A stretch of DNA of 64,000 bases, taken from the sequence record PX915676.1. One strand, given 5' to 3'. Position numbers and translations under genes: made by a program. Within the stretch, counting starts at the first letter, position 1. Each line of letters opens with the position of its first letter. This DNA is from a phage. Positions 11,915 to 31,341 of this stretch are shown here, one piece after another. The notes under the pieces were generated by a model. It ran no database searches, was not told where the DNA came from, and saw only the letters and a list, made by a program, of their open reading frames with translations.

Positions 11915-11924
11915 TAAATAAAAA

Positions 11925-11953
11925 GGCTGCCTTCGGGTGGCCTTTGTTGTTTT
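11925..11953 (+). terminator. intrinsic terminator
   Basis: GGCTGCC-TTCG-GGTGGCC hairpin + TTTGTTGTTTT. Confidence 0.7.
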
Positions 11954-13168: not shown

Positions 13169-13244
13169 GCGCTCTTAGCTCAATGGATAGAGCAGTAGCC
13201 TTCTAAGCTATTGGTTACAGGTTCGAGTCCTGTAGGGCGCACCA
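13169..13244 (+). tRNA. tRNA-Arg (anticodon TCT)
   Basis: Hand-folded cloverleaf: acceptor GCGCTCT/AGGGCGC, D-stem GCTC/GAGC, anticodon stem GTAGC/GCTAT with loop CTTCTAA, T-arm ACAGG-TTCGAGT-CCTGT, discriminator A and encoded CCA. Confidence 0.85.
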
Positions 13245-13249
13245 CATTT

Positions 13250-13365
13250 AGGGCTAGTATGGGTGCGGCACCAGAGTTAGTGTATCCCTGTTGAGGCAAG
13301 TGCTTTTATAACAGTGGGAATTGCTTTCTTAGTGAGCTTCTGGTTCGATTCCAGATAGTCCACCA
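13250..13365 (+). other. tRNA-like remnant or atypical tRNA (canonical T-arm and acceptor-like helix, body does not fold)
   Basis: TCTGG-TTCGATT-CCAGA T-arm at 13339-13355; 6-bp helix GGGCTA (13251-56)/TAGTCC (13356-61) then CCA; about 80 nt between cannot be folded into D and anticodon arms by eye. Confidence 0.25.
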
Positions 13366-13384
13366 AATCAAATAGGAGGTAGTT

Positions 13385-13666
13385 ATGAGTTGGGGTGGTG
13401 TAATATCCTTAATCTGTATCTTCCTTGTCTGCATAGCCCTTACAGGCTGCGTACAGAGCCGTCCTGATGGATGGTGTGCAGTAGCAGTGGAAGGTGTTTG
13501 TGTTTCTCGCTGGCATAAAGGTGAGAAGGTTCCTTCTGGTGAAATTGATATGCGTTACAGTGGTATCTCATGTCTGAATGGTGCAGCAGTAGATGAGGAG
13601 ACTAAAACCTTATCCGATGCGCAGTGGTGTGGTGGCTCTACAGTTACCACTGGTAAGGAGTGGTAA
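13385..13666 (+). CDS. lipoprotein (signal peptide with lipobox LTGC)
   Basis: Track ORF; AGGAGG SD; MSWGGVISLICIFLVCIALTGC... Confidence 0.65.
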   Translation: MSWGGVISLICIFLVCIALTGCVQSRPDGWCAVAVEGVCVSRWHKGEKVPSGEIDMRYSGISCLNGAAVDEETKTLSDAQWCGGSTVTTGKEW

Positions 13667-14497: not shown

Positions 14498-14714
14498 TAT
14501 CTTGATTGTCTACTTGACAGGTATGGTGATAGTTTCAGCTCTGATAAAATTCCTTGACGTAAAAGGTAGTGTGGAGTTCAGAGGGTGGAACAACGAACCA
14601 AACCTATCAAAGATAGCAATTATAGTTTTTCTATGGCCTATCGTTGCTGTGGTTTTTATATCCCTTGTCTTGTGGGCTGCCCTGTGGGATTTTATACTCC
14701 CTAACAAGAACTAA
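14466..14714 (+). CDS. hypothetical membrane protein (two predicted TM segments)
   Basis: Track ORF; start uncertain (GTG 14466 or ATG 14523). Confidence 0.45.
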   Translation: MEINLVISPVSILIVYLTGMVIVSALIKFLDVKGSVEFRGWNNEPNLSKIAIIVFLWPIVAVVFISLVLWAALWDFILPNKN

Positions 14715-15009
14715 GAACTTATCGTGAAGGATTCTTACGAGAGTCCTTTGAGATAGGACTTCAGATCTCCTATCAAACTAACATTCACGTAACTAGCCCA
14801 TAAGGGCGTTACCCTTTAATAACCCAGCCCACTAAGGGGGCGGGAGTTTAGTGCTGGATTGGCTTTACGCTTATTCCTACAAAGGCAACCGATTGTTAGA
14901 TCTTACATGCAATATTAATTAATAGGATAAGGGAGGATTCGTCCCCTCCCCCTATTTTATTGAATCTTTATCTAAGCAAGTCTTATATAAACGTTTAATT
15001 GGAGGATGT

Positions 15010-27141: not shown

Positions 27142-28932
27142 ATGTCAAAGATCATTTTGGGAGACACAGGTTGTAAGGAATGTATCTCTCATGGTCGTGA
27201 TAAAACCCACAACCACATGATTCTCTTCCGTAACGAAGAGACTGGTGAGGAGTGGGGGAGTTGTAACCGTTGTGGGAATTACGAAGTGTTCGAAAAGGGC
27301 ACTACACCTACTCCAAACGAGAAGAAAGAGTTATCCCCTGAAGAGTTGAGAGAAGTCTTAGATGATTGCTTAGAGCTTCCTCAGGGTGAACTTACTCGCC
27401 GTTTAATCCCTAAAGCTGTATCAGAGCGGTTTGAGTGTCGTATTGGCCTCAGTCAAACTGATGGTCAGACACCAGACAGTTACTTCTTTCCTCGTGAACG
27501 TGATGGAAACATTGTCGGATACGAGGTTAAGCTGCTAGATAGTAAGAAGTTCTATTACGTCGGCAGTGTGAAAGAAGCAGATTTGTTCGGTATGGCACAA
27601 GCTCAACGTGGAGATGTGTACAACAAGAAGCTGTTCATTTTTGAAGACCCGCTATCCTGTATGTCAGGTTTCCATGTCCTTACAGCTTTTACAAATGCAA
27701 CAAATATTAAACCAGCATGTGTTTCTTTACCGTTCGGTGCAGGTTCAATCTCTTCTGTGTTGTCTCGTAACCGAGACTTCGTAAATGGTTTTGAGGAGGT
27801 TGTGCTCTGCATGGACAACGATGATGCAGGTGAGATAGCTTTAACAAAAGGTCGTTCTTTATTCCCTCATGTTAAATTTGCTCGTATTCCTAAAGGAACT
27901 TTCCCATACAACGGTGTGGAGAAAGAGATTAAGGATGCGAATGACATGCTTCTGTCTGGTCGTGGTCAAGAGTTATTCAACATTCTCAAGTATTCAGCAA
28001 AGCGGGAATCTCCTGCTGGTGCTGTAACAATCTTTGATTGTCTTGATGATGCTCTGAAGAAAGCGGAGTGGGGTATCCCGTATCCGTGGAAGACTCTGAA
28101 TGAGATGACCTTCGGTATTCGATGGGGAGAGGTGGTAGCAATTGGTGGTGGAGTAGGGAGTGGTAAAACGCTCATTGCTCACGAGCTGGTTGCTCATCTG
28201 TGCTTAGAGCATGGTTTTAATGGAGGTGGCTTCTTCTTGGAAGAGAAGGTAGGCATGTCTGTTAAGAACATTGCTGGTAAGTCAGCATCAATTCCTTTCC
28301 ACCGACCTGATGTTGAATATGACGAGGAAGATTTGCGTAATGAAGCACTTCGTTATGCAGACAAATTCTTCTTGTATGACAACTTCGGACAGAATGAATG
28401 GGAAGACATTAAACAGTGTATCCGTTTCTGGGTAGTTGAAAACCAGTGTAAGTTCATCATCCTTGATAATATTACCGCTCTGGTATCTCATTTAACACCT
28501 TCAGAGATTAACACTGAAATCAGTAAGATTGCTTCCGAGCTTGCTGGTATGTGTAAAGAATTAGACTTTACCGCTTTCGTGCTATCTCACCTTAATGCTC
28601 CGGCAGGTGGTGCTCCTCATGAAGAAGGTGGGCAGGTACGTGAAGTACAGTTCACTGGCTCTCGTTCTCTTATGCGTTGGTGTCAGTGTATCATTGGCTT
28701 TGAGCGTGATAAGCAAGCTGACGGCTTAGCTAAGAACCTCTCAGTCATTCGATTACTGAAAGAACGTAACTACGGTCAGACAGGTGTCTGTTATACTAAG
28801 TATATCAGCGAAACCGGTAGACTTGTAGAAAGGGAAGACTTTGAAGTTGATGAAGATAATCCATTCGTTTTAACTAACGGAGAGGATGCAGCTTCTCTCG
28901 TCAACCAAGCAGATGGAGCTTCACCGTGGTAA
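27142..28932 (+). CDS. DNA primase/helicase (T7 gp4-like)
   Basis: N-terminal zinc-binding CKEC...CNRCG, TOPRIM-like middle, Walker [10 protein letters not shown] and DnaB-like helicase C-terminus. Confidence 0.9.
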
Positions 28933-29483
28933 AGAAAAAGAAGAAAGTGTTTGCATTCGATATCGAGAGTAATGCACTGTACGATGACATAACTAAAGTA
29001 TGGTGTATTTATATCTTTGATGTTGAAACTGGTGAAAGGTGGGGCTATCGGCCTCACCAAATTGAAGATGGGATTCGTAAACTTACAGAAGCAGATGTAC
29101 TAGTGGGTCATAATATTATTGACTTCGACTTACCTGCTCTGAAAAAGATGTATCCCTCTTTGATTAAATATAATTTTAACGTCTTTGACACTTTATGTCT
29201 TAGTCGATATCTTAAACCTGACCGTATTGGTGACAGTCCTGAGTATCCGAAAGGCGACCCTAGACGTGGCCCAAGAGGTCATGGTTTGAAGCAATGGGGT
29301 GAGTTCTTAGAGGAACTTAAAGGTGACTACGGTGAGCAAGAGGAAGCATGGGATGCTTTCACTGAAGATATGTTTACTTATTGTGAACAGGACGTTAACT
29401 TAACTGTTAAGGTTTATCTTTTCTTGTGTGAACTCACGGGATTTGACCCTTACGACCCACCTTCATTATATTGGAAAATGTAA
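28926..29483 (+). CDS. DNA polymerase I family 3'-5' exonuclease subunit (T7 DNAP N-terminal homolog)
   Basis: Exo I FDIESNAL, Exo [15 protein letters not shown], Exo [11 protein letters not shown] collinear with T7 gene 5 residues 1-185; GTG start with GGAG SD overlapping primase stop. Confidence 0.85.
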
Positions 29484-29484
29484 A

Positions 29485-30798
29485 ATGATTGTTATCCCGA
29501 TTAACCAAATTGAAGATAAGGTTGCTCAACAACCTGATATCACTGTTGGTCGTCACTTCATTGAACAGTTGATTAACAACAACTTGATTCCAGATGGTAT
29601 CTGTCCCATCATTACTGGTGGGGCTGTTCGTGATGCTGTCCTTAATAACATAGCTCCACATGACATTGATATCTTTATTGTCAGAGGACAAACACCAAGA
29701 ACTCAAAACACTTTCATCCCAACTGATCGTTGGCAAGAGCTTGGACGGGAGATTGAAAGTAATGTGAAGGAATGGCTAGAGTCACAAGATATTGAATATG
29801 CATCACTTCTTGCTGAAGCTACAAACGAATCCTATGCTGGGGGTTCTCAATTAACATTCACTGATATTATTGAGTTTCAGTGGAATGGGGTTCGTATCCA
29901 ATTCATGTTTAATTATCCTACTTCTATTGAAGAGGTATTGGATAATTTTCCTATGATGTGCCGTGGTGCGATGACTCTTGACAACTTATTCATGACTTCT
30001 CACGGATATTTGGCTATGACTTCCCCTTGTCCAGTGGTTGTCTCTAGTCGTGAAATCAGGTATGTTCACAAGAAGTGGCCTAACTCACAAGTGTTGAGAT
30101 TTTCCTCTCCAGCAGTTGCGCATCAATACATGGCCCAAACTCGATATCTTCCCACACCTCAGCCAGTTAGTCATCTAGTCAATGGATTAGGTCAGGTTTC
30201 TCTTATTGAAGATACAACAAGTGCTCTATATTGTGTTAACCGAGACATGAGTCGATTCTTTGGAATCCCTTATGAAGAGATTCAGATTATGTCTAGTCTT
30301 CACGGTTCTGGTCAGATTCATGCGTATTGGTCTGAGGGGTTGACAAATTTAACGACTAACACGGGTGGTGATCTGCTTGGTCGAGAAGAGGAACCTAACC
30401 GACACAATGCAATTGAAGGGGTGTTTGTAGCCCCTGCAATGCGTCGAGCACAAGAGTCACGAAGAGAAAGCCCTACTCGTAGAACATCTTTTGAAGAAGC
30501 TCTTGGTATTACAAGTGATTCTATGGAGCGATGGATGGCTAGACCCTCTCGTGGTCGACCAAACGGCTTAACTGTTAGCGCACGTCAGTTCTCTGGTCAG
30601 GGTTTCGCTGTTGGTGATATCAACGCCCCTTCTCGTGTTATCTGGACTGATGAAGGTATGGAACAAGATTTGGGAGATAGTCTCGCTGATCGCTTTATTG
30701 CTAACAACCCTGAAGTATTAGAACCTCAAACCCGTACAGTTCGGTTTGCCGATGAAGCGGGTCGTGGAATCTCTTTTGACATGGAAACAAATAACTAA
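29485..30798 (+). CDS. polymerase beta-superfamily nucleotidyltransferase (CCA-adding/poly(A) polymerase-like head domain)
   Basis: ITGGAVRDAVL...HDIDIF matches GGxVRD and DxD motifs of class II tRNA nucleotidyltransferases; remaining 350 aa unrecognised. Confidence 0.55.
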   Translation: MIVIPINQIEDKVAQQPDITVGRHFIEQLINNNLIPDGICPIITGGAVRDAVLNNIAPHDIDIFIVRGQTPRTQNTFIPTDRWQELGREIESNVKEWLESQDIEYASLLAEATNESYAGGSQLTFTDIIEFQWNGVRIQFMFNYPTSIEEVLDNFPMMCRGAMTLDNLFMTSHGYLAMTSPCPVVVSSREIRYVHKKWPNSQVLRFSSPAVAHQYMAQTRYLPTPQPVSHLVNGLGQVSLIEDTTSALYCVNRDMSRFFGIPYEEIQIMSSLHGSGQIHAYWSEGLTNLTTNTGGDLLGREEEPNRHNAIEGVFVAPAMRRAQESRRESPTRRTSFEEALGITSDSMERWMARPSRGRPNGLTVSARQFSGQGFAVGDINAPSRVIWTDEGMEQDLGDSLADRFIANNPEVLEPQTRTVRFADEAGRGISFDMETNN

Positions 30799-30807
30799 GG
30801 AATAAGA

Positions 30808-31341
30808 ATGAGTTTACTAGGAAGTATTGAACTGCATGATGTAATTGACAATGGCTATCTGGATGCGGAGCATAAGTATGTTAACGCTGCTAGTGTGGAT
30901 ATCCGTATTGGTGATACTATCCTTGTTGAAGAACAGGCTGATGGCATCGTTGATATTGATGCGAAAGAGAATCTTCAGTGGAAGGAAGTAAAGATTCCTG
31001 AAGAGGGTTTGGTTATCACTCCGGGTCAGTTCTTCTTGGCTCACTCTATGGAGGAGTTTAACCTTCCAGATAACATCTCAAGTCTGTTTGTTCTGCGTTC
31101 GTCTATGGCTCGTTGTGGTTTGAACCACCTTCACGCCGGTTGGGCAGATGCAGGATTTAATAGCAGTAAGCTGACATTTGAATTCCATAACGTAACCAAG
31201 CACCACAGCTTACGAGTTCGTGCTGGTATGCGTGTTGGTCAGATGGTTATGTTTGAGCACTCTCATGCAGGGGAACACTCCTATGCAGTGAAGGGTCGTT
31301 ATAATAACTCTGAAGGTGTGGTTGCATCTAAAGGTGTGTAA
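30808..31341 (+). CDS. dCTP deaminase family protein
   Basis: ASVDIRIGD and AGWADAGFNSSKLTFEFHN resemble dCTP deaminase/dUTPase motifs. Confidence 0.75.
   Translation: MSLLGSIELHDVIDNGYLDAEHKYVNAASVDIRIGDTILVEEQADGIVDIDAKENLQWKEVKIPEEGLVITPGQFFLAHSMEEFNLPDNISSLFVLRSSMARCGLNHLHAGWADAGFNSSKLTFEFHNVTKHHSLRVRAGMRVGQMVMFEHSHAGEHSYAVKGRYNNSEGVVASKGV

What the first reader, a model, noticed from the sequence alone, without database searches (positions are those of the whole stretch)
13250..13365. tRNA-like remnant immediately after tRNA-Arg
Six nt downstream of tRNA-Arg(TCT) lies a perfect T-arm (GGTTCGATTCC), an acceptor-like 6-bp helix and CCA, but the D and anticodon arms cannot be folded and the element is about 40 nt too long. 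It could be a decayed tRNA gene, a tRNA with an unusual insertion, or a tRNA-like RNA. The adjacent gene at 29485 encodes a CCA-adding-type nucleotidyltransferase.
Basis: seen in the sequence. Interest (0 to 1): 0.4.

Follow-up and report, generated by a model that had tools for sequence, protein, structure and literature searches.

The report
Conserved tRNA-like RNA gene beside tRNA-Arg
Right after its arginine tRNA gene, this E. coli phage carries a 115-base unannotated gene for a tRNA-shaped RNA that cannot decode codons; it is kept almost unchanged across three phage genera, and its end resembles that of alanine tRNA and tmRNA.

Summary
At 13251-13365 (+), 6 nt after tRNA-Arg(TCT), there is a 5-bp T arm with a consensus T loop, a 6-bp closing helix, then A + CCA. 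A descriptor for this layout hits only the tRNA-Arg and this element in the window (0.013 expected).

It is not a tRNA. ARAGORN, Rfam (E<=10) and 1505 trial internal deletions give no tRNA. It is not a decaying remnant either. Thirteen copies from three Gordonclarkvirinae genera differ at 4 of 115 positions, while flanks differ by 15-24% (P down to 5e-13). The shared block ends exactly at the RNA's ends.

About 30 of ~98 related phage records carry it, always just 3' of a tRNA-Arg. Others lack a clean 121-nt block bounded by CACCA. ECBP2 has an unrelated folded RNA ending in ACCA at the same site.

Counted from the CCA end, the helix is G1-C72, G2-C71, G3.U70 with A73. That is the E. coli tRNA-Ala acceptor minus one pair.

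Best reading: a selected, non-decoding tRNA-like small RNA, co-transcribed with tRNA-Arg, cut out by RNase P, possibly charged with alanine. Function is unknown. The closest analogue is T4 RNAC/RNAD, but not by homology. The nucleotidyltransferase is 16 kb away and occurs in all relatives, so it is not linked.

The parts
13169..13244 (+). tRNA-Arg(TCT) with encoded CCA. It is the constant upstream partner of the element.
   Evidence: ARAGORN; Rfam tRNA 72.4 bits. Every element-bearing phage examined has a tRNA-Arg(TCT) 5-11 nt upstream, in several different sequence versions.
13245..13250 (+). Spacer CATTTA between the tRNA-Arg CCA and the element. A13250 is the -1 base, and it is also A in the other upstream context.
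   Evidence: In YF01-type phages the spacer is ATTTTTAAACA; homology resumes at A13250.
13251..13365 (+). tRNA-like small RNA gene (115 nt), unannotated in all GenBank relatives.
   Evidence: Descriptor hit. 111 of 115 columns are invariant in 13 copies from 3 genera. Far less diverged than the flanks. 'none' annotated under the match.
13251..13256 (+). Acceptor 5' strand GGGCUA (G1, G2, G3...).
   Evidence: Pairs with 13356-61. All 6 pairs are invariant in 13 copies.
13260..13273 (+). D-arm-like hairpin: UGG/CCA stem and a loop with GG (13267-68). It is preceded by U13258 and A13259 (like U8 and A9) and followed by G13274 (like position 26).
   Evidence: Hand fold and ARAGORN relaxed drawing. 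Polymorphisms G13265A and G13274A fall in the loop and at 'position 26'.
13286..13317 (+). Long irregular hairpin (12 pairs, apical loop AAGU). This is the extra arm that has no tRNA counterpart.
   Evidence: Present in the MFE and in constrained folds. Polymorphism A13298G lies in the apical loop. No covariation is available.
13321..13335 (+). Short hairpin UUGC[UUUCUUA]GUGA in front of the T arm. Its 7-nt loop resembles a tRNA-Arg(UCU) anticodon loop (CUUCUAA in the window's tRNA-Arg, UUUCUAA in phiEco32's).
   Evidence: G13323A changes G.U to A-U in this pairing but breaks the G-C pair of the alternative hairpin. Loop comparison. Weak evidence.
13339..13355 (+). T arm: UCUGG / UUCGAUU / CCAGA.
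   Evidence: all 5 pairs invariant.
13356..13365 (+). Acceptor 3' strand UAGUCC (U13359 is 'U70'), discriminator A13362, CCA 13363-65.
   Evidence: E. coli alaX ends ...UAGCUCCACCA and tmRNA ends ...CAGCUCCACCA. In EP335, divergence starts at the first base after the CCA.
13366..13666 (+). Spacer AATCAAATAGGAGG (ribosome-binding site) plus a 93-aa putative lipoprotein gene (13385-13666). In phages without the element this spacer follows the tRNA-Arg CCA directly. It is context, not part of the RNA.

Best explanation
13251-13365 is a functional gene for a non-decoding tRNA-like small RNA. It is an accessory gene of E. coli Gordonclarkvirinae (Kuravirus, Nieuwekanaalvirus, Suseptimavirus).

Shown: it has a tRNA-type acceptor helix, a D-like loop with GG, a consensus T arm and an encoded A-CCA end. 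It lacks a canonical anticodon arm and carries about 45 extra nucleotides. It always lies 5-11 nt 3' of a tRNA-Arg(TCT), on the strand of the surrounding early genes. It is under far stronger constraint than its surroundings. The conserved block is exactly the RNA.

Inferred from established tRNA biology: it is transcribed with tRNA-Arg in the early polycistronic transcript. RNase P cuts 5' of G13251, because an acceptor/T-arm stack plus a 3' RCCA is the bacterial RNase P substrate. The 3' end is trimmed back to the encoded CCA. The result is a stable ~115-nt RNA.

More speculative: counted from its CCA end the helix carries G1-C72, G2-C71, G3.U70 and A73. This is the identity set read by alanyl-tRNA synthetase, which ignores the anticodon. 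The RNA may therefore be alanylated, as tmRNA and Ala minihelices are. It may act as a molecular mimic that engages or titrates a tRNA-binding host factor, such as a tRNA-targeting defence nuclease, AlaRS/EF-Tu or a processing enzyme. Its patchy distribution in a variable early region fits an accessory host-interaction or counter-defence role. The confidence given is for 'selected, processed, non-decoding tRNA-like RNA'. For alanylation I put about 0.35, and for any specific downstream role 0.2 or less.
For: Module present and non-random.

Not a tRNA, tmRNA or any Rfam family.

Conservation: 13 copies from 3 genera have 111/115 invariant columns. There are 1-2 differences per 116 nt against 15-24% in the flanks. 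Between the same phages, a core protein (the nucleotidyltransferase) is only 32-39% identical.

The minimal shared block is 13250-13365. The left edge is set by the YF01-type context and the right edge by EP335 and SR02.

The four polymorphisms occur in all combinations for 13265 x 13323. The variation is therefore old enough to have recombined or recurred, yet nothing else has changed.

All four polymorphisms are tolerated by the tRNA-like fold: 240/240 cells paired, with one G.U to A-U change. Two of them break pairs of the competing minimum-energy rod.

There is a clean 121-nt presence/absence bounded by CACCA at the tRNA-Arg CCA. A second, unrelated, strongly folded RNA (z = -5.0) ending in ACCA occupies the same slot in ECBP2.

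The acceptor equals the E. coli tRNA-Ala acceptor minus pair 4.

Precedent: T4 has tRNA-Arg(UCU) followed by the stable RNAs RNAD and RNAC (PMC3014915, PMC9697503).
Against: There are no expression data; no small-RNA or Northern data exist for any element-bearing phage in the searched literature.

There is no covariation, because the copies are too similar. Everything inside the acceptor and T arm is therefore a thermodynamic or hand model.

The minimum-energy fold (-37.9 kcal/mol) pairs the D region with the T-arm sequence. It beats the tRNA-like folds (-26 to -32). The overall z-score is only -2.0.

The acceptor/T stack is 11 layers, not 12. An alternative register (A13250 as position 1, an A.A mismatch, discriminator C) would move the G.U to position 4 and remove the encoded CCA.

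No homologue was found outside these coliphages.

High identity across genera could partly reflect recent lateral transfer rather than selection.
Confidence: 0.68

Rival explanations
1. Non-functional passenger. The sequence is an old tRNA-derived fragment with no RNA-level function. Its near-identity across genera comes from recent DNA-level spread, by gene conversion or co-conversion driven by homing endonucleases that frequent phage tRNA loci.
For: YF01, KM01, Bas91, CHD5UKE1 and TH42 share a distinct upstream context with a different tRNA-Arg. An HNH/homing endonuclease gene is annotated immediately upstream of that tRNA-Arg in YF01 and Bas91. In UKE3, a ~220-bp tract (tRNA-Arg + element) is 98% identical inside flanks that are ~79% identical. 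Homing endonucleases such as SegB are frequently associated with phage tRNA loci and drive local DNA rearrangement (PMC13096335).
Against: The identical block ends exactly at the RNA's 5' and 3' ends in several independent contexts: at least 2 upstream and 4 downstream. Conversion tracts should not do this. The window, EP335, IME267 and UKE3 have no endonuclease gene beside it. The four polymorphisms have been shuffled among backgrounds without any further substitutions. The substitutions avoid or preserve the tRNA-like pairs.
Confidence: 0.12
2. A rod-shaped small RNA or processing element that is not tRNA-like in vivo. The D region pairs with the 'T-arm' sequence, as in the minimum-energy fold. 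This gives a long terminal helix with a 3' ACCA, like the ECBP2 RNA. It would act as a base-pairing regulator or as an RNase P/RNase E punctuation signal for the downstream mRNA.
For: MFE -37.9 against -26 to -32 kcal/mol for tRNA-like folds. The RNA in the same slot of ECBP2 is a rod with a ~12-bp terminal helix and ACCA. The UUAGUG motif is repeated (13277-82, 13329-34).
Against: G13274A (2 phages) and G13323A (6 phages) break pairs of this fold. A perfect T-loop consensus with a 5-bp stem, placed exactly before the 3' acceptor strand, is unexpected in a rod. The downstream gene varies (lipoprotein, or other ORFs in SR02, UKE3, TH42) and is expressed without the element in phiEco32 and MN03.
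Confidence: 0.1
3. Decaying tRNA pseudogene: a neutral remnant of a second tRNA gene.
For: The 3' 33 nt are 91% identical to tRNA-Gln genes of Klebsiella T4-like phages. It lies in tandem with a tRNA.
Against: Conservation far exceeds the flanks. Boundaries are sharp. No single deletion restores a tRNA. The tRNA-Gln similarity is limited to the T arm and 3' acceptor strand.
Confidence: 0.04
4. A real decoding tRNA of aberrant shape, for example a suppressor or an intron-containing tRNA that is spliced.
For: The acceptor, D-like loop, T arm and CCA are intact. An Ala-type acceptor is anticodon-independent, so any anticodon could be used. ARAGORN at 80% threshold draws a tRNA-Asn(GTT) with a 22-nt intron.
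Against: No hit with the Rfam tRNA model at E<=10. No default ARAGORN call, with or without introns. The relaxed model needs an A.A first pair, a 4-bp anticodon stem and a 25-nt unpaired 'variable loop'. No splicing system for such an intron is known in E. coli.
Confidence: 0.03

Closest known systems
Phage T4 RNAD (species 2) and RNAC (species 1) stable RNAs
   Same: The genomic logic is the same. In T4, tRNA-Arg(UCU) is followed on the same strand by 119- and 139-nt stable RNAs. RNAC carries a GGTTCGAATCC T arm and a closing helix. Their function has stayed unknown for 50 years (PMC3014915, PMC9697503).
   Different: There is no sequence or model-level homology: nhmmer finds nothing and the covariance model gives 12 bits on RNAC against 148 for self. 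RNAC has no G3.U70 helix and no encoded CCA. T4 is an unrelated phage family (Straboviridae myovirus against Gordonclarkvirinae podovirus).
tmRNA tRNA-like domain (SsrA, RF00023)
   Same: Acceptor with G3.U70, A73 and CCA. Consensus T arm. A D-loop analogue with GG. No decoding anticodon arm. E. coli tmRNA ends ...CAGCUCCACCA and the element ends ...UAGUCCACCA.
   Different: 115 nt against 363 nt. It has no tag reading frame, no pseudoknots, and no conserved GGAUUCGACG...CGGAC core. ARAGORN tmRNA mode and Rfam find nothing. The acceptor helix is 6 bp, not 7.
tRNA-Ala and Ala minihelices (AlaRS substrates)
   Same: The acceptor GGGCUA/UAGUCC-A-CCA equals E. coli tRNA-Ala GGGGCUA/UAGCUCC-A-CCA with pair 4 removed. 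From established knowledge, AlaRS recognises G3.U70 with A73 and charges helices that lack an anticodon.
   Different: It is not a cloverleaf tRNA. There is no Ala anticodon in an anticodon loop. Charging is untested.
Canonical tRNA (RF00005)
   Same: Acceptor, U8/A9-like bases, D-like loop, T arm and encoded CCA. It lies in tandem with a real tRNA.
   Different: It fails every tRNA detector. It has ~45 extra nt between the D arm and the T arm, and the acceptor/T stack is 11 layers rather than 12.
Bacterial Y RNA-like YrlA (RF02553), which has a tRNA-like module
   Same: A non-coding RNA that contains a tRNA mimic.
   Different: The only Rfam alignment scores 14.1 bits against a threshold of 69 and mostly covers the real tRNA-Arg. 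In Y RNAs the termini form the Ro-binding stem, not an acceptor with CCA.

Membership tests
tRNA (RF00005) | Cloverleaf scoring at or above the Rfam gathering score (29 bits) | tested here: not met
   No tRNA hit on 13250-13365 even at E<=10; the neighbouring tRNA-Arg scores 72.4 bits.
tRNA (RF00005) | Called by ARAGORN, with or without an anticodon-loop intron | tested here: not met
   No default-threshold call. The only call on the element is a contrived tRNA-Asn at 80% threshold. 0 of 1505 internal deletions give a call.
tRNA (RF00005) | T arm with consensus T loop, acceptor helix, 3' CCA | tested here: met
tRNA (RF00005) | 7-bp acceptor + 5-bp T stem (12-layer stack) and a 5-bp anticodon stem with a 7-nt loop at positions 27-43 | tested here: not met
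   The stack is 6 + 5 layers. About 65 nt lie between 'position 26' and the T stem. Only a weak 4-bp hairpin with a 7-nt loop lies before the T arm.
tmRNA (RF00023) | Alanine-type acceptor: G3.U70, A73, CCA | tested here: met
   G13253.U13359, A13362 and CCA 13363-65, invariant in 13 copies. Compared with E. coli ssrA.
tmRNA (RF00023) | mRNA-like domain with resume codon, tag ORF and stop, plus pseudoknots | tested here: not met
   ARAGORN -m, also at 70% threshold: none. Rfam: none. 115 nt leaves no room.
tmRNA (RF00023) | Conserved tRNA-like-domain core (5' ...GGAUUCGACG..., 3' ...CGGAC before the T arm) | tested here: not met
   Absent from the sequence. Present in E. coli ssrA and in the 66-69-nt phage mini forms.
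T4 RNAC/RNAD-type stable RNAs | Encoded directly 3' of tRNA-Arg(UCU) in the tRNA transcription unit, ~120-140 nt | tested here: met
T4 RNAC/RNAD-type stable RNAs | Sequence or structure homology to RNAC or RNAD | tested here: not met
   MAFFT alignment shows no convincing similarity. nhmmer: none. Covariance model R1: 12.1 bits, E about 1, on the 3' part of RNAC.
T4 RNAC/RNAD-type stable RNAs | Accumulates as a stable RNA processed from a tRNA precursor | not testable with these tools
   Needs Northern blot or small-RNA-seq.
AlaRS substrates (tRNA-Ala, tmRNA, minihelix-Ala) | G3.U70 in an acceptor helix that ends with A73-CCA | tested here: met
   This depends on the 5' end being G13251.
AlaRS substrates (tRNA-Ala, tmRNA, minihelix-Ala) | Actually aminoacylated with alanine | not testable with these tools
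   Needs in vitro charging or acid-gel/periodate assays.
Bacterial RNase P substrates | Coaxial acceptor/T-arm stack with T loop and 3' RCCA | tested here: met
   Present by sequence, but the stack has 11 rather than 12 layers. Cleavage itself is not testable here.
YrlA / Y RNA-like (RF02553) | Score at or above the gathering threshold (69 bits) | tested here: not met
   14.1 bits, E = 4.1, spanning 13189-13297, i.e. mostly the tRNA-Arg.

The most novel reading that the evidence does not exclude
The element would be a horizontally exchanged 116-nt RNA 'cassette' encoding an anticodon-less tRNA mimic that AlaRS can charge. It would have an Ala/tmRNA-type acceptor on an 11-layer stack, plus a hairpin whose loop (UUUCUUA) copies the tRNA-Arg(UCU) anticodon loop. 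The phage would use it as a decoy or inhibitor, either against a tRNA-directed host defence nuclease or against the alanine-dependent ribosome-rescue pathway. It would belong to a wider, undescribed class of Ala-type tRNA-like RNAs hidden in phage tRNA arrays. Examples from IMG/VR are L077, L074, L067, L042 and the 66-69-nt forms that look like a tmRNA tRNA-like domain alone.
Probability: 0.18. Interest if true: 0.78.

Novelty: new variant of a known kind. Interest (0 to 1): 0.55.

Why it matters
Phage tRNA genes are now recognised as counter-defence tools against tRNA-cleaving immune systems (PMC11555353, PMC13096335). The non-tRNA RNAs encoded among them, such as T4 RNAC and RNAD, have had no function for decades.

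This element is a compact example that can be handled genetically. It is 115 nt long and is naturally present or absent among otherwise similar, easily grown coliphages: SU10, PGN6866 and the BASEL phages Bas90 and Bas91 carry it, while phiEco32 and MN03 lack it. Its conservation is strong enough to imply a function. It has one concrete biochemical handle, the alanine-type acceptor.

Every kuravirus genome paper and annotation reports 'one tRNA' and leaves this locus blank. The element therefore also shows what tRNA finders and Rfam miss.

Tried and rejected
1. tRNA with an intron or insertion. ARAGORN intron mode, relaxed thresholds and 1505 single internal deletions gave no credible tRNA.
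2. tmRNA, including permuted forms. ARAGORN and Rfam found nothing. Reading frames inside the element run into the T arm.
3. Homology to T4 RNAC/RNAD. None by alignment, nhmmer or covariance model.
4. Derivation from phage tRNA-Gln. The similarity is confined to the T arm and the 3' acceptor strand.
5. Host origin. No match in 5,426 E. coli genomes. One chance coding hit in 185,579 species genomes.
6. Wider family by pattern scans. IMG/VR has no copy. Two metagenome scans found nothing. The 5'-motif scan gave only L077 plus chance hits. L077 shares the acceptor, the 'UAUGG' that follows it and the T arm, but not the interior. With model R1 it scores 26 bits, in the 15-28-bit range of ordinary tRNAs and other tRNA-like candidates. 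Homology is therefore unproven.
7. Internal phage-sigma (gp36) promoter. TAGTGTAT at 13278-85 is one mismatch from TAATGTAT, but such matches occur at chance frequency (69 observed, 71.7 expected).
8. Small peptide. The 11-codon ORF from ATG 13259 carries two non-synonymous polymorphisms (hand translation).
9. Functional link to the nucleotidyltransferase. The gene is core to the subfamily irrespective of the element.
10. Secondary-structure proof by covariation. Impossible with 4 variable sites.

Full report
**Identity of the window.** The region is 98-99% identical to phiEco32-like podophages of E. coli (Gordonclarkvirinae: PGN6866, SU10, Bas90 and others). All genes around the finding are small early ORFs on the + strand.

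**Check of the observation.**
- ARAGORN and Rfam find one tRNA in 64 kb: tRNA-Arg(TCT) at 13169-13244, with an encoded CCA.
- After the spacer CATTTA comes GGGCUAG-UA-UGGGUGCGGCACCA-G...UCUGG-UUCGAUU-CCAGA-UAGUCC-A-CCA.
- The T loop and stem, the 6-bp closing helix (one G.U), the discriminator A and the CCA are all there, at the stated coordinates. The RNA is 115 nt.
- GGTTCGANTCC occurs only twice in the window, in the tRNA-Arg and here, against 0.05 expected.
- A descriptor requiring a 5-bp T stem, a TTCRANN loop, a 6-7-bp closing helix 40-140 nt upstream and N+CCA returns exactly these two loci, against 0.013 per random window.
- Two details of the finding are wrong. A 3-bp D-like stem with a GG loop can be drawn. 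The nucleotidyltransferase gene is 16 kb away, not adjacent.

**It is not a tRNA, a tmRNA or a known RNA family.**
- Rfam gives nothing on the element, even at E<=10 on a 351-nt query.
- ARAGORN gives nothing at default settings, with or without introns, and nothing in tmRNA mode.
- At 80% threshold ARAGORN draws a contrived tRNA-Asn with a 22-nt intron, an A.A first pair and a 25-nt unpaired variable loop.
- I deleted every internal segment of 25-59 nt (1505 constructs). None is called a tRNA. The reading 'a tRNA with one insertion' therefore fails.

**It is not decaying.**
- BLAST finds the element in 30 phage records at 97.6-99.2% identity, never annotated.
- These records belong to three genera: Kuravirus, Nieuwekanaalvirus (EP335) and Suseptimavirus (IME267, UKE3).
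- In thirteen copies, 111 of 115 columns are invariant.
- Against EP335, IME267 and UKE3 the element shows 1-2 differences in 116 nt, while the adjoining tRNA-Arg and the 300 nt downstream differ by 15-24% (binomial P 4e-7, 5e-13 and 2e-7).
- The surrounding kilobases are 78-85% identical.
- A core protein, the nucleotidyltransferase, is only 32-39% identical between the window and those phages.
- The block of near-identity has sharp edges. On the left it starts at A13250 in phages that carry a completely different tRNA-Arg and spacer (YF01, KM01, Bas91, CHD5UKE1, TH42). On the right it stops at the CCA in EP335 and three bases later in SR02.
- The unit that is kept is therefore the RNA itself.
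- The four polymorphic sites (G13265A, G13274A, A13298G, G13323A) occur in all combinations for 13265 x 13323. The variation is not brand new, yet nothing else has changed.

**Presence and absence.**
- About 98 records carry the subfamily's nucleotidyltransferase. About 30 carry the element.
- phiEco32 and MN03 lack exactly 121 nt. In the window the sequence reads ...GCGCACCA|CATTTAGGG...TAGTCCACCA|AATCAAATAGGAGG. In MN03 it reads ...GCGCACCA|AATCTAATAGGAGG.
- The element plus its spacer thus sits between the tRNA-Arg CCA and the ribosome-binding site of the next gene, and it ends in the same CACCA. This fits gain or loss by recombination at the CCA microhomology. That step is inference.
- The downstream neighbour varies: the lipoprotein gene, or extra ORFs in SR02, UKE3 and TH42.
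- The upstream neighbour is always a tRNA-Arg(TCT).
- In ECBP2 the same slot holds a different ~95-nt RNA. It folds into a rod (-44.4 kcal/mol, z = -5.0) and ends in CUACCA.
- The slot evidently accommodates structured RNAs with CCA ends.

**Structure.**
- With G13251 as position 1, the first 26 bases follow tRNA numbering: acceptor 1-6, an extra G7, U8, A9, D-like stem 10-12 with 21-23, a loop containing GG, and G at 'position 26'.
- Next come 11 unpaired bases and a long irregular hairpin (13286-13317).
- A short hairpin follows (13321-13335, loop UUUCUUA), then three bases, the T arm and the acceptor 3' strand.
- In this model all 240 pair cells are standard pairs. The only variable pair changes G.U to A-U, and the other three polymorphisms lie in loops or at 'position 26'.
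- The thermodynamic optimum is different. There the D region (10-26) pairs with the T-arm sequence (88-103), giving -37.9 kcal/mol against -26 to -32 for tRNA-like folds.
- Two polymorphisms, carried by 2 and 6 phages, break pairs of that rod.
- I therefore prefer the tRNA-like fold. With no double changes available the interior is unproven, and a conformational alternative cannot be excluded.

**The acceptor end.**
- Counted from the CCA, the helix is G1-C72, G2-C71, G3.U70, C4-G69, U5-A68, A6-U67, with A73.
- E. coli tRNA-Ala is GGGGCUA...UAGCUCC-A-CCA (alaX). The element is the same helix without pair 4.
- tmRNA ends ...CAGCUCC-A-CCA.
- From established knowledge, G3.U70 with A73 is the identity set of alanyl-tRNA synthetase. 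That enzyme does not read the anticodon and charges tmRNA and short helices.
- Alanylation is therefore plausible but untested.
- It depends on the 5' end being G13251. I infer that end from the encoded RCCA motif, from the fact that both tRNA-Arg types and the ECBP2 RNA also encode their CCA, and from conservation stopping at the CCA.
- In the alternative register A13250 is position 1, with an A.A mismatch and discriminator C. That restores 7 + 5 geometry but has no CCA and puts the G.U at 4:69.

**Relatives.**
- There is none in E. coli genomes, in IMG/VR by exact 20-mer, or in JGI metagenomes.
- Among species genomes there is one chance coding hit.
- A profile HMM and a covariance model built from the 13 copies find only generic tRNA-level matches of 10-28 bits against 148 for self. 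Real tRNAs, T4 RNAC (12 bits) and all candidate tRNA-like RNAs fall in that range.
- T4 is the closest precedent in layout. There tRNA-Arg(UCU) is followed by RNAD (119 nt) and RNAC (139 nt, with a T arm). Both are stable RNAs of unknown function (PMC3014915, PMC9697503).
- The element works like that kind of RNA but is not a member by homology.

**The nucleotidyltransferase.**
- ORF 29485-30798 matches PHROG 12715 'nucleotidyltransferase'.
- It also matches the PolyA_pol/CCA-adding head domain, but below threshold (18.8 against 23 bits). The GGAVRD...DID signature is visible.
- It occurs in all ~98 relatives, including phiEco32, MN03 and ECBP2.
- It may act on tRNA 3' ends in general. There is no evidence tying it to this element.

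**Mechanism proposed.**
- Shown: a discrete, strongly constrained, tRNA-shaped RNA gene in tandem with tRNA-Arg.
- Inferred: co-transcription with tRNA-Arg; 5' cleavage by RNase P; 3' trimming to the encoded CCA; accumulation as a stable RNA that enzymes recognising the tRNA elbow and acceptor end will bind.
- Speculative: alanylation, and a role as a mimic or decoy. The patchy, laterally shuffled distribution in the accessory early region is typical of host-interaction genes.
- The loop UUUCUUA matches a tRNA-Arg(UCU) anticodon loop at 5 of 7 positions for the window's own tRNA-Arg and 6 of 7 for phiEco32's. This is only suggestive; my rough estimate of the chance probability is 0.01-0.08.

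**Literature.** Kuravirus genome papers used tRNAscan-SE and ARAGORN, or tRNAscan-SE alone for SU10, and do not mention this RNA. The YF01 comparative paper reports a single tRNA per genome (PMC4281155, PMC9965538). I found no description of this RNA.

**Verdict.** This is a real, previously unannotated, conserved tRNA-like small RNA gene. It is a new variant of the old but unexplained theme of stable non-tRNA RNAs in phage tRNA units. It has an alanine-type acceptor that makes the question experimentally approachable. Interest is moderate (0.55): the function is unknown, no expression data exist and no broader family has been demonstrated.

Noticed in passing
L011 2248-2346 (Escherichia phage ECBP2, JX415536): At the same slot, directly after the tRNA-Arg CCA, ECBP2 carries an unrelated ~95-nt RNA. 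It folds into a long rod (-44.4 kcal/mol, z = -5.0), has a ~12-bp terminal helix and ends in CUACCA. It is followed by an extra small ORF. It is unique to ECBP2 in the phage database.
   Followed up: partly
L003 1583-2098 (YF01); also L115 (Bas91), L016, L116, L117: One subgroup shares a quite different tRNA-Arg(TCT) and spacer upstream of the same element. In YF01 and Bas91 an HNH/homing endonuclease gene is annotated immediately upstream of that tRNA-Arg, overlapping its 5' end. The tRNA-Arg locus is mosaic, with several tRNA-Arg sequence versions, as in T4 segB-type tRNA regions.
   Followed up: partly
L040 1508-1576(-), L058 10328-10396(-), L070 5242-5309(-), L035 4082-4147(-); also L044, L079: These are 66-69-nt RNAs in IMG/VR contigs, several inside or beside tRNA gene arrays (L040, L079; a single tRNA near L044 and L058). 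They look like a tmRNA tRNA-like domain alone. They have a GGGCRY acceptor with G3.U70, the motif GGAnUUCGACG, a short capping hairpin with compensatory changes between contigs, then CGGACGGGGUUCGAUUCCCC, a 6-nt 3' strand and ACCA. ARAGORN and Rfam do not call them.
   Followed up: partly
L077 2352-2482(-), L074 6609-6730(+), L067 8746-8850(-), L042 1286-1403(-), L053 7566-7707(+): These are other 105-142-nt tRNA-like RNAs with GGG... acceptors (G.U at the third pair), a T arm and ACCA. L077, L074 and L067 lie in or next to phage tRNA arrays; no tRNA was found near L042 or L053. L077 lies between tRNA-Ala and tRNA-Thr in a 14-tRNA array. It shares the element's acceptor (GGGCUA/UAGUCC) and the following UAUGG, but its interior is unrelated. 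None is in Rfam. The search pattern forced the UCC-ACCA end, so their frequency is not estimated.
   Followed up: partly
L018, L029, L030, L034, L048-L050 and others (IMG/VR): Many 35-60-kb viral contigs share ...TGGGGTTCGACTCCCCAAGCTCCACCA with no matching 5' strand upstream. They are probably tmRNA or tRNA 3'-end fragments at integration (attP) sites of temperate phages.
   Followed up: no
window 29485-30798: The 437-aa ORF carries a class II nucleotidyltransferase signature (GGAVRD...DID). Its PolyA_pol head match is below threshold (18.8 bits). It matches PHROG 12715 and is core to all ~98 Gordonclarkvirinae records. It lies between a 3'-5' exonuclease-like ORF (28926-29483) and a dCTP deaminase-like ORF (30808-31341).
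   Followed up: partly
window 13260-13276 with 13338-13353: The D-like region is complementary to the T-arm sequence over 14 pairs, because CCAGA occurs twice (13271-75 and 13351-55). A rod fold therefore competes with the tRNA-like fold. This may be a conformational switch or a trace of an internal duplication.
   Followed up: partly
window 13277-13282 and 13329-13334: The hexamer UUAGUG occurs twice inside the element. L077 has UUUAGUG and CUAGUG at comparable places. The meaning is unknown.
   Followed up: no
window 11922-11945: A strong intrinsic-terminator-like hairpin (10 pairs, then GTTGTTTT) lies upstream. The next terminator-like sites on the + strand with a comparable T-rich tail lie at about 14631-14690 and 14931-14950; a weaker candidate at 13503-13528 sits inside the lipoprotein ORF. 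The tRNA-Arg and the element probably lie in one transcription unit of about 2.7-3 kb.
   Followed up: no
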